Shown here: in pieces, positions 48,643 through 48,777 of the stretch
Position numbering within the stretch: position 1 is the stretch's first letter
How the letters are laid out: each line of letters starts with the position of its first letter
Assembly: GCF_032854445.1 (NCBI RefSeq)
Contig: NC_088300.1
Location: forward strand, 74,512,302-74,576,301
Length of the DNA: 64,000 bases
Source: Liolophura sinensis
Lineage: Eukaryota
Direction: 5' to 3'
The notes under the pieces: generated by a model
What the model saw: the letters and a program-made list of their open reading frames with translations, nothing else
What the model was told of the DNA's origin: nothing
Database searches by the model: none
Translations under genes and position numbers: made by a program

Positions 48643-48777
48643 TGGCAAGGGAATATGGGATATATATATATATATATATATATATATATATATATATATA
48701 TATATATATATATATATATATATATATATATATATATATATATATATATATATATATATTCCATATTCCCTTGCCAG
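48643..48777. repeat. Near-perfect palindrome. A 20-bp arm ccatggcaagggaatatggga is followed by (TA)49 at about 48660-48758 and then the inverted arm ttccatattcccttgccag. It forms the array terminus.
   Basis: The reverse complement of the right arm equals the left arm apart from one mismatch. The TA tract is about 98 bp. Hairpin or cruciform formation is possible. Confidence 0.9.

What the first reader, a model, noticed from the sequence alone, without database searches (positions are those of the whole stretch)
48643..48777. The array ends exactly at a palindrome of about 135 bp with a (TA)49 core, a possible breakage or recombination site
The last unit is truncated mid-exon 2 at a near-perfect inverted repeat (ccatggcaagggaatatggga ... 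ttccatattcccttgccag) around a roughly 98-bp TA tract. Long palindromic AT-rich repeats form cruciforms and are known hotspots for double-strand breaks and rearrangement. The sharp junction suggests the array boundary was created, or is maintained, by breakage and repair here. The edge units (47166-48642) are also more diverged and rearranged, as expected where homogenisation is weaker.
Basis: partly seen in the sequence, partly recalled or inferred. Interest (0 to 1): 0.6.

Follow-up and report, generated by a model that had tools for sequence, protein, structure and literature searches.

The report
Retroelement junction palindrome ending a gene array
The (TA)50 palindrome at the end of the tandem array is real, but it is the end of a decayed Penelope-like retroelement sitting in a TA microsatellite, with 17 bases of the element's own coding sequence copied backwards across the TA tract, which is a known habit of these elements and not a new kind of breakage hotspot.

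Summary
A 134-bp palindrome (48643-48776) consists of 17-nt arms, 16/17 complementary, around a pure (AT)50. It starts one base after homology to the 1,891-bp array stops, in the middle of the predicted exon 2.

Neither arm comes from the array. The right arm is conserved coding sequence (P-Y-S-L-A of the motif NIPYxLARRIC) of a 5'-truncated, decayed Penelope-like retroelement (PLE) with a C-terminal GIY-YIG nuclease, spanning about 48760-50412. The left arm is an inverted copy of those 17 nt.

The element's other end shows the same signature: (TA)14 with perfect 19-nt arms (50394-50459). These are the only two long TA tracts in the window. Relatives of this PLE end directly at (TA)n tracts and carry inverted fragments at their 5' ends, as published for PLEs.

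The best explanation is fold-back (self-primed) synthesis from the self-complementary TA tract, followed by homology-free joining to a broken array unit. This most likely happened during PLE integration. Later host repair of a break at the fragile TA tract gives the same product and cannot be excluded.

The palindrome is therefore a scar of the junction, not a pre-existing hotspot in the array. This is a new example of a known phenomenon, of modest interest.

The parts
46313..48642 (+). Last unit of the 1,891-bp tandem array. It is 2,317 bp up to the anchor plus 12-13 nt, truncated in predicted exon 2, and carries a 426-bp composite internal duplication (47179-47604) and 17 private substitutions.
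48643..48659 (+). Left arm, tggcaagggaatatggg: an inverted copy of PLE nucleotides 48760-48776 (16/17). It abuts the array with 0-1 nt of microhomology and is absent from canonical array units.
48660..48759 (.). Pure (AT)50 core: a self-complementary pivot, probably one half of the retroelement's target microsatellite. The last 'atat' may be element-derived, because a relative has AATATT at the homologous position.
48760..48776 (+). Right arm, tccatattcccttgcca: ancestral PLE coding sequence (t cca tat tcc ctt gcc a = P Y S L A of the conserved motif [14 protein letters not shown]).
48760..49934 (+). Decayed, 5'-truncated PLE ORF (family profile positions 92-358): HTH_animal/thumb region, CX4CxxC linker (49158-49184, C-NKPR-C-GA-C) and GIY-YIG nuclease. 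It has at least two frameshifts and one stop, and is interrupted by a SINE.
49199..49561 (-). tRNA-derived SINE inserted into the PLE ORF, with a 12-nt target-site duplication acacatgttaga (49187-49198 and 49562-49573). Its tRNA-like head is at 49485-49556.
49935..50412 (+). PLE 3' untranslated region. Its last 19 nt (50394-50412, cgttttattatttttttgc) form the left arm of the second palindrome and have the T-rich 3'-end form seen in relatives just before their TA tracts.
50413..50440 (.). (TA)14 core of the second palindrome, probably the other half of the target microsatellite.
50441..50459 (+). Right arm of the second palindrome, gcaaaaaaataataaaacg: a perfect inverted copy (19/19) of the PLE 3' end.
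50460..50488 (+). Short stretch resembling PLE positions 48823-48850. Together with the arm it forms a 44-column alignment. It may be the stub of a second PLE fragment. Unresolved.

Best explanation
The palindrome is the 5' junction of a 5'-truncated Penelope-like retroelement (PLE A, about 48760-50412, + strand) that integrated into a (TA)n microsatellite, the preferred target of this kind of element. The two TA tracts are probably the two halves of that target. At each end of the element, a DNA 3' end lying in the self-complementary TA tract folded back on itself. A polymerase extended it for 17 nt at the 5' end and 19 nt at the 3' end, using the element's own terminal sequence as template, and the strand was then released and joined to other DNA. 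On the 5' side the captured DNA was a broken unit of the tandem array, joined without homology, so the event fixed the present array boundary. Shown: the right arm is ancestral PLE coding sequence; the left arm is its inverted copy; the element is cut off exactly at the TA tract; the same architecture occurs at its 3' end; relatives target TA tracts and carry inverted 5' fragments. Inferred: that the fold-back synthesis happened during integration (PLE reverse transcriptase self-priming) and not later, and that the distal array or original upstream flank was lost in the same event.
For: The arms are absent from all 25 canonical units and unique in the window. Twenty homologues were found (best E = 4e-61) carrying GIY-YIG and HTH_animal domains. 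Their alignment reaches the first residue encoded by the right arm, within the near-invariant motif NIPYxLARRIC. Sixteen tblastn alignments start at 48761 and three more at 48764-48770, all at internal protein residues, and the profile HMM covers positions 92-358 only. The only two long TA tracts in 64 kb both carry 16-19-nt arms, whereas 61 short TA runs have arms of 0-5 nt. Both tracts bracket the same element. In relatives, TA tracts lie 240-700 nt past the ORF end. In one young family, three of seven copies end ...cttttgac directly at (TA)n, three of seven have inverted PLE fragments abutting the 5' end, and TA tracts lie on both sides in three. L002 holds a head-to-head pair. Published work reports PLE insertions as 5'-truncated, with adjacent inverted 5' copies, tails and (TA)n target bias linked to the CX2-5CxxC linker (PMC8557442). 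This copy has that linker. [quoted passage not shown] The right arm of palindrome 2 is 19/19 identical to the PLE A end, although the adjacent PLE-like stub is only about 75% similar, so the arm was copied from A itself.
Against: None of the 7 young-family copies, nor about 20 TA tracts of 12 nt or more in those loci, shows an inverted copy placed across a TA tract. In relatives the inverted fragment lies between the TA tract and the + copy. There is no TA between the array and the left arm, no target-site duplication, and the array does not resume after the element. A simple insertion is therefore excluded and an accompanying deletion or capture of a distant end must be assumed. No hammerhead ribozyme, expected in canonical C-terminal-nuclease PLEs, was found in the window or in relatives. 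The element is old (frameshifts, a stop, a SINE insertion), yet the arms differ at only 1 of 36 positions. That is compatible with, but does not favour, an origin as old as the insertion. Timing cannot be resolved from one locus.
Confidence: 0.5

Rival explanations
1. Host repair after the insertion. The PLE was already resident next to a long TA tract. The tract formed a hairpin or cruciform and broke, or stalled a fork. The resected end folded back within the TA tract, and a host polymerase (Pol delta or Pol theta type) copied 17 nt. The nascent strand was then joined by end joining to a second break inside the array, deleting everything in between. An independent event of the same kind made the second palindrome.
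For: The product is exactly that described for yeast fold-back inversions: an inverted-microhomology pivot, mostly 5-34 bp of synthesis, and capture by NHEJ with 0-5 bp of microhomology (PMC11724301). Here the values are 17 and 19 nt, with 0-1 nt at the array junction. (AT)34 stimulates chromosome deletions in yeast, and expanded TA repeats form cruciforms that break (PMC12972899 and PMC9890227). This model explains the missing target-site duplication, the missing TA left of the arm, the absence of array beyond the element, and the near-identity of the arms despite an old, decayed element. Hairpin energies are strong.
Against: It needs two independent events, 1.65 kb apart, that both copied outward from the ends of the same PLE. 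TA tracts next to PLE relatives in another genome show no such arms (0 of about 20), so TA tracts alone do not routinely produce them. PLE self-priming already predicts palindromic junctions.
Confidence: 0.3
2. A classical PLE 5'-end palindrome followed by birth of a microsatellite. Self-priming at integration produced a roughly 38-bp perfect head-to-head palindrome (17 + ATAT + 17) centred on the element's own AATATT. The central ATAT later expanded by slippage to (AT)50, so the TA core is not target-derived.
For: Palindromes of 18 bp and 38 bp at PLE 5' ends are described (PMC3846280). A relative reads tcAATATTCCA at the homologous site (L037) and the family consensus there is N-I-P-Y, so the ancestral element had an ATAT seed exactly at the palindrome centre. 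This model explains why no TA lies outside the left arm.
Against: Expansion from 2 to 50 pure units is large. The same element has a TA tract at its 3' end, and relatives show TA tracts on both sides of insertion units, which is more simply explained by a TA target.
Confidence: 0.1
3. Assembly artefact. The join between a 48-kb tandem array and a 100-bp TA tract, both hard to assemble, is chimeric, or the TA length and the last-unit duplication are consensus errors.
For: Arrays and long TA tracts are classic sources of misassembly, and PLE structures are noted to cause assembly problems (PMC8557442). No reads or second assembly could be consulted, and exact-ORF look-ups found nothing.
Against: Assemblers do not invent a 17-nt inverted copy of neighbouring coding sequence. 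The same architecture occurs twice. The last unit's private substitutions show it is a distinct, real edge copy.
Confidence: 0.05
4. A MITE or foldback-type DNA transposon with terminal inverted repeats and a TA-microsatellite core inserted at the array end.
For: The superficial shape fits: short inverted termini around a simple repeat. Two such structures occur in the window.
Against: There is no target-site duplication at either structure. The two have unrelated arm sequences and neither arm recurs elsewhere in the window. One arm of the first structure is conserved retroelement coding sequence in frame with the downstream ORF.
Confidence: 0.02

Closest known systems
Penelope-like element (PLE) insertion junctions: 5'-truncated copies with inverted fragments and palindromes at the head-to-head junction, inserted into (TA)n microsatellites (Arkhipova et al. 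2013, PMC3846280; Craig et al. 2021, PMC8557442)
   Same: The element has a C-terminal GIY-YIG nuclease with a CX4CxxC linker and is 5'-truncated. Its 3' end runs into (TA)n. An inverted copy of the element's own end forms a palindrome at the 5' junction. There is no clear target-site duplication.
   Different: Here the inverted copy is only 17 nt and lies on the far side of the TA tract, not directly against the + copy. A mirror-image 19-nt copy exists at the 3' end (tail-to-tail). No hammerhead ribozyme or pLTR was detected. The upstream partner is a tandem gene array, not the other half of the target.
Short fold-back (snap-back) templated inverted insertions at double-strand-break repair junctions (yeast Pol delta + NHEJ, PMC11724301; SD-MMEJ / Pol theta snap-back synthesis, PMC5728401 and PMC11292364)
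   Same: Both involve an inverted microhomology pivot next to the end, a few to a few tens of nucleotides of synthesis, release, and capture by the other end with 0-5 bp of microhomology. The outcome is a lengthened inverted repeat at the junction.
   Different: The pivot here is a 100-bp perfect TA tract, not a 10-bp imperfect repeat. The polymerase may be the retroelement's reverse transcriptase and not a host enzyme. This is a germline, evolutionarily fixed event.
Palindromic AT-rich repeats (PATRRs) and Flex1-type (AT)n fragile sequences (PMC12972899, PMC9890227; PATRR comparison from general knowledge)
   Same: It is an AT-rich near-perfect palindrome with strong cruciform or hairpin potential sitting at a rearrangement junction.
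   Different: PATRRs are several hundred bp of complex AT-rich palindrome that recurrently mediate translocations. Here the non-TA arms are 17 nt and were created by the junction event itself, and no recurrence or polymorphism is shown.

Membership tests
Penelope-like retroelements, endonuclease-positive, C-terminal GIY-YIG (Neptune/Nematis-type linker) | C-terminal GIY-YIG nuclease domain | tested here: met
   Relatives carry PF01541: P0007 scores 29.3 bits against a cut-off of 22.6, and precomputed hits exist for 6 relatives. The window copy matches family profile positions 240-358 with iE = 1.8e-42. The decayed window segment alone gives no Pfam hit.
Penelope-like retroelements, endonuclease-positive, C-terminal GIY-YIG (Neptune/Nematis-type linker) | CX2-5CxxC zinc-finger-like linker upstream of GIY-YIG | tested here: met
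   C-NKPR-C-GA-C is encoded at 49158-49184. The cysteines are invariant in alignment A1. The motif definition comes from PMC8557442.
Penelope-like retroelements, endonuclease-positive, C-terminal GIY-YIG (Neptune/Nematis-type linker) | Reverse transcriptase in the same ORF, of the PLE/TERT-related clade | tested here: inconclusive
   The window copy lacks this part because it is 5'-truncated. Full-length relatives have RT motifs in the same ORF (L004, 727 aa; L016 RVT_1 E = 1.6e-5 at 25.2 bits, below the 29.6 cut-off; L034 gene with weak RVT_1). No phylogeny was made.
Penelope-like retroelements, endonuclease-positive, C-terminal GIY-YIG (Neptune/Nematis-type linker) | Structural habits: frequent 5' truncation, partial tandems (pLTR), adjacent inverted 5' fragments, 30-40-bp tail | tested here: met
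   In relatives: L004 is a tandem ORF1-ORF2-ORF1, L002 is a head-to-head pair, and the young family shows six different truncation points, inverted fragments in 3 of 7 copies and a 37-nt tail. The window copy is 5'-truncated with an inverted 17-mer.
Penelope-like retroelements, endonuclease-positive, C-terminal GIY-YIG (Neptune/Nematis-type linker) | Insertion bias for (TA)n microsatellites | tested here: met
   The window copy is bracketed by (AT)50 and (TA)14. The 3' ends of relatives abut (TA)n.
Penelope-like retroelements, endonuclease-positive, C-terminal GIY-YIG (Neptune/Nematis-type linker) | Hammerhead ribozyme motif in the terminal repeat (stated to be universal in canonical C-terminal-nuclease PLEs) | tested here: not met
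   There was no Rfam hammerhead hit at E <= 1 in window 48500-53000, or at E <= 0.1 in seven relatives' loci. This may reflect decay, a divergent motif, or a lineage without it. It lowers confidence in the clade assignment but not in the retroelement identity.
Fold-back templated inverted insertion at an end-joining junction | The inserted bases are the reverse complement of sequence adjacent to the junction, pivoting on an inverted (self-complementary) repeat, with little or no microhomology at the capture junction | tested here: met
   The 17-nt arm is the reverse complement of 48760-48776 (16/17), the pivot is (AT)50, and the capture junction gatacc(a)|tggcaag has 0-1 nt shared. The size falls within the published 5-34-bp mode.
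PATRR-like recurrent breakage hotspot | Recurrent or polymorphic rearrangements at the palindrome among individuals; cruciform extrusion | not testable with these tools
   No second haplotype, population data or reads are available, and exact-ORF look-ups across the junction found nothing. Only the hairpin potential could be computed.
MITE / foldback DNA transposon | Target-site duplication and multiple copies sharing the same terminal inverted repeats | tested here: not met
   There is no duplication at either palindrome. The arms are unique in the window, and the two palindromes have unrelated arms.

The most novel reading that the evidence does not exclude
One retroelement integration left fossil evidence of its intermediate at both ends. 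TA-hairpin self-priming occurred tail-to-tail at the 3' end and head-to-head at the 5' end of the same Penelope-like element. The 5' strand was captured by a distant break inside a tandem gene array, so a PLE integration event deleted the distal array and set its boundary. If general in this genome, such inverted n-mers across TA tracts would give direct sequence-level support for the still unproven self-priming model of PLE retrotransposition, and would show PLEs acting as sculptors of tandem gene arrays.
Probability: 0.2. Interest if true: 0.55.

Novelty: new member of a known kind. Interest (0 to 1): 0.3.

Why it matters
It replaces a generic 'fragile palindrome' reading with a specific, testable history. 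The array's present right boundary is a retroelement junction, and the palindrome is a by-product of fold-back synthesis at a TA microsatellite. For annotators, it is a reminder that TA-core palindromes at discontinuities may mark Penelope-like element ends. These are under-annotated, cause assembly problems, and can be mistaken for miRNA-like hairpins or recombination hotspots. For PLE biology, a copy with mirror-image inverted terminal copies across both halves of its TA target is a useful natural example bearing on the self-priming hypothesis. Such examples could be surveyed genome-wide at little cost.

Tried and rejected
- **Left arm derived from nearby array sequence.** By eye, 'ggagaaatgggat' about 30 nt downstream in canonical units resembles 'gggaatatgggat'. 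I dropped this once the right arm proved to be conserved PLE coding sequence and the left arm its 16/17 reverse complement.
- **Array continuing beyond the palindrome.** There is no match in 48643-64000, even at word size 7 and E=10.
- **Paralogous 'empty site' for palindrome 2.** The repeat shared by 50490-51 and 52488-547 stops short of the palindrome, so it gives no information.
- **Second PLE copy after palindrome 2 at protein level.** tblastn and a family HMM found nothing. Only a 44-nt DNA similarity remains (1 of 2000 local shuffles), and it is unresolved.
- **Array as a PLE-mobilised retrozyme-like tandem repeat.** There is no hammerhead or any other Rfam hit in the unit.
- **Identifying the array gene or the organism.** The 160-aa predicted product has no homologue and only a sub-threshold DUF7529 hit. 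The organism was not determined.
- **Finding the same junction in other assemblies.** Exact look-ups of the ORF spanning the palindrome and of the GIY-YIG ORF found nothing on record.
- **Window-type motif in relatives.** I searched for a short inverted copy of the element's own 5' end across a TA tract in 7 same-family copies and 31 metagenomic relatives, and found none.
- **Hammerhead ribozyme to define the PLE 3' end.** Not found.
- **Weak Rfam hits.** The palindromes hit mir-297, mir-3688 and mir-4536 far below gathering scores, which reflects only the TA-hairpin shape.

Full report
**Observation**

The window is eukaryote-like DNA. From position 1 to 48641/48642 it is a tandem array with a 1,891-bp period and at least 25 units.

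The reported palindrome exists. Its arms are 48643-48709 and 48710-48776, 99% complementary, with no spacer. It consists of tggcaagggaatatggg, a pure (AT)50 at 48660-48759, and tccatattcccttgcca. The 17-nt arms are 16/17 complementary, which has a chance probability of about 3e-9. The strand folds into a single hairpin of -53.1 kcal/mol (z = -10.6).

All 25 canonical units read ...cttgccgatacc|aaggccttgtaccagc. The last unit instead reads ...cttgccgatacc|a|tggcaaggg. The array therefore stops one base before the palindrome, inside the predicted second exon of a two-exon, 160-codon ORF. No trace of the array is found in the remaining 15 kb.

The last unit is truly aberrant. It has 24 substitutions against consensus, compared with 4-15 in the other units. 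Seventeen are private: sixteen lie between 47634 and 48513, fourteen of them in 47634-48081, and one lies at 46821. It also has a 426-bp composite internal duplication at 47179-47604. The penultimate unit is normal.

**What the arms are**

Neither arm occurs in a canonical unit or anywhere else in the window. One reading frame runs through the right arm into a decayed ORF.

A frameshift-corrected translation finds 20 homologues (best E = 4e-61) carrying GIY-YIG (PF01541) and HTH_animal (PF26215) domains. In the alignment, the homologues reach the very first residue of the query. The motif N-I-P-Y[10 protein letters not shown] is one of the best conserved in the family, with A, R, R, I and C invariant.

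The right arm reads t cca tat tcc ctt gcc a and encodes P-Y-S-L-A of that motif. Sixteen tblastn alignments start at 48761, and three more start at 48764-48770. All start at internal residues of the proteins. A family HMM covers only profile positions 92-358.

The right arm is therefore ancestral retroelement coding sequence, and the element is cut off exactly at the TA tract. The left arm is a 17-nt inverted copy of the element's first 17 nt. The single mismatch is in the copy: left g48659, where the ancestral Ile codon requires the t at 48760.

**The element**

[quoted passage not shown] They occur as tandems (L004) or head-to-head pairs (L002). The window copy has the CX2-5CxxC linker, here C-NKPR-C-GA-C at 49158-49184.

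This is the architecture of endonuclease-positive Penelope-like elements (PLEs). No hammerhead ribozyme was detected in the window copy or in relatives, so the exact clade is open.

The copy is old. It has at least two frameshifts and a stop. A tRNA-derived SINE is inserted at 49199-49561 with a 12-nt target-site duplication.

**A second palindrome**

The window contains only two TA tracts of five or more units. The second, (TA)14 at 50413-50440, is also the core of a palindrome: cgttttattatttttttgc / gcaaaaaaataataaaacg, with 19/19 complementarity (hairpin z = -12.1). By contrast, 61 short TA runs have arms of 0-5 nt.

This tract lies 479 nt after the PLE stop codon. In relatives, TA tracts lie 240-700 nt after the ORF end.

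In a young family from one genome (seven loci), three + copies end ...gttctgttttKtattcttttgac directly at (TA)n. One does so after a 37-nt 'tail'. TA tracts flank both sides of three insertion units. Three of the seven copies have an inverted PLE fragment abutting the 5' end.

The window's cgttttattatttttttgc|(TA)14 has the same T-rich 3'-end form. PLE A therefore most likely spans 48760-50412. The overall arrangement is:

array | rc(A 5' end, 17 nt) | (AT)50 | PLE A | (TA)14 | rc(A 3' end, 19 nt) | other DNA

**Literature**

Craig et al. 2021 (PMC8557442) describe PLE insertions as highly 5'-truncated. They are often accompanied by an inverted 5'-truncated copy at the 5' end and by a 30-40-bp tail. 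Target-site duplications are obscured by a strong microsatellite bias. (TA)n is listed as a preferred target, and the CX2-5CxxC linker is proposed to mediate that bias in Neptune.

Arkhipova et al. [quoted passage not shown] They interpret these as self-priming, possibly by read-through transcripts with simple-repeat flanks. In their account, a sense template would give tail-to-tail products and otherwise head-to-head ones.

**Mechanism**

A DNA 3' end lying in a TA tract is self-complementary, so it can fold back and prime on its own strand. Extending it past the tract copies the adjacent element end in inverted orientation. After 17-19 nt the strand is released and joined to another end.

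Written out on the minus strand, this reproduces the observed sequence exactly, including the homology-free join gatacc(a)|tggcaag.

The same product is documented for host repair. In yeast, a resected break end folds back at an inverted microhomology. Pol delta adds mostly 5-34 bp, and NHEJ captures the strand with 0-5 bp of microhomology (PMC11724301). Long AT repeats also stimulate breaks and deletions (PMC12972899, PMC9890227).

I favour integration-linked self-priming (0.5) for three reasons:
- Both ends of one element carry the signature.
- PLEs are known to produce junction palindromes.
- TA tracts next to PLE relatives do not otherwise acquire arms (0 of about 20).

Later host fold-back repair at the fragile tract (0.3) better explains the near-identity of the arms in an old element. 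It also explains the absence of any TA outside the left arm.

A third variant (0.1) treats the TA core as an expansion of the element's own AATATT at the centre of a classical 38-bp PLE palindrome. A relative reads tcAATATTCCA at the homologous position.

In all three cases the left arm was made by the junction event. The palindrome is a scar and not a pre-existing hotspot within the array.

A simple insertion into the array is excluded, because the array does not resume. Either the integration or repair captured a distant broken end and deleted the intervening DNA, or the array already ended there.

**Unresolved**

The 29-44 nt right of palindrome 2 resemble PLE positions 48808-48850. Only 1 of 2000 shuffles preserving local composition reaches the observed score, and 3 of 1000 do against the whole element on both strands. 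There is no protein-level signal. This may be the stub of a second PLE fragment.

No relative shows an inverted copy across a TA tract, so the window's arrangement is a variant of the published one.

The organism and the array gene remain unidentified. No second assembly of the junction could be reached, so an assembly chimera at the array-to-arm join cannot be formally excluded. The inverted 17-mer and its 19-nt counterpart argue that the structure is biological.

**Verdict**

It is a new instance of a known PLE and fold-back phenomenon, of modest interest (0.3). If the symmetric TA-hairpin self-priming signature proves general in this genome, it would bear on the unresolved PLE integration mechanism.

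Noticed in passing
window 1-48642: There are at least 25 near-identical 1,891-bp tandem units, about 0.5% from consensus. Each carries a two-exon ORF (GT...AG intron) for a 160-aa protein with an acidic C-terminal half. The protein has no detectable homologue among 5.8 billion proteins and only a sub-threshold DUF7529 hit. There is no higher-order periodicity in unit-to-unit differences at lags 1-10.
   Followed up: partly
window 47179-47604 (with sources 46706-46869 and 47174-47442): The last array unit contains a 426-bp composite internal duplication built from two non-adjacent pieces of the unit. This is a second small rearrangement close to the array edge.
   Followed up: partly
window 49199-49561 (-), also 52027-52137: A tRNA-derived SINE (tRNA-like head at 49485-49556, 29.2 bits) with a (GAGT)n-type tail is inserted in the PLE ORF, with a 12-nt target-site duplication acacatgttaga. 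A 112-nt fragment of the same SINE, 92% identical and inverted, lies at 52027-52137.
   Followed up: partly
window 51208-52020 (-): ORF fragments here look like LTR-retrotransposon pol: an RT-type segment 'VFIDIIVYGKTQAEHDRNLRAVLQRL' and an integrase zinc-finger-like segment. The identification is by eye, from general knowledge. The flank of the array is a mosaic of decayed mobile elements.
   Followed up: no
window 60354-60593 (+): An ORF ending '...[31 protein letters not shown]' resembles, from memory, the N-terminus of the splicing factor PUF60/half-pint. It may be the first conserved host gene right of the array and could help identify the organism.
   Followed up: no
window 48657-48725 and 50393-50460; L002 7588-7923: TA-core palindromes give weak Rfam matches to several miRNA precursor families (mir-297, mir-3688, mir-4536, mir-3149, mir-1277, mir-466), all far below gathering scores. 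Those families' consensus hairpins are themselves TA-repeat palindromes.
   Followed up: no
L034 4477-4916 and 6770-7176: In a relative, the inverted duplication at the PLE 5' end extends through the TA tract into non-element flank ('gggcctatatataatata' on both outer sides, inverted). The inverted part was therefore copied together with flanking DNA and was not inserted independently.
   Followed up: partly
L016 199-4049: This metagenomic contig carries a bacterial FliI-like ATPase ORF followed by an ORF whose N-terminus matches FliJ (E = 1e-14) and whose remainder is a PLE RT + GIY-YIG protein. It is probably a chimeric assembly.
   Followed up: no
L004 194-5074: This is a full-length relative arranged as ORF1 (393 aa, no Pfam hit) - ORF2 (727 aa, RT + nuclease) - identical ORF1, a tandem with a 3,699-bp period. 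This PLE lineage therefore has a separate upstream ORF1.
   Followed up: partly
L037 4741: One young-family copy is 5'-truncated only about 13 nt upstream of the position homologous to the window copy's truncation point, in the AATATTCCA region. It has an inverted internal PLE fragment abutting it. This may be coincidence, or it may reflect a preferred ATAT microhomology site.
   Followed up: no
window 58811-58909 and 63744-63834: Two minisatellites are present: 21/42-bp units x 4.7 copies at 73-75% match, and 45-bp units x 2 copies at 91% match. They are unrelated to the finding.
   Followed up: no
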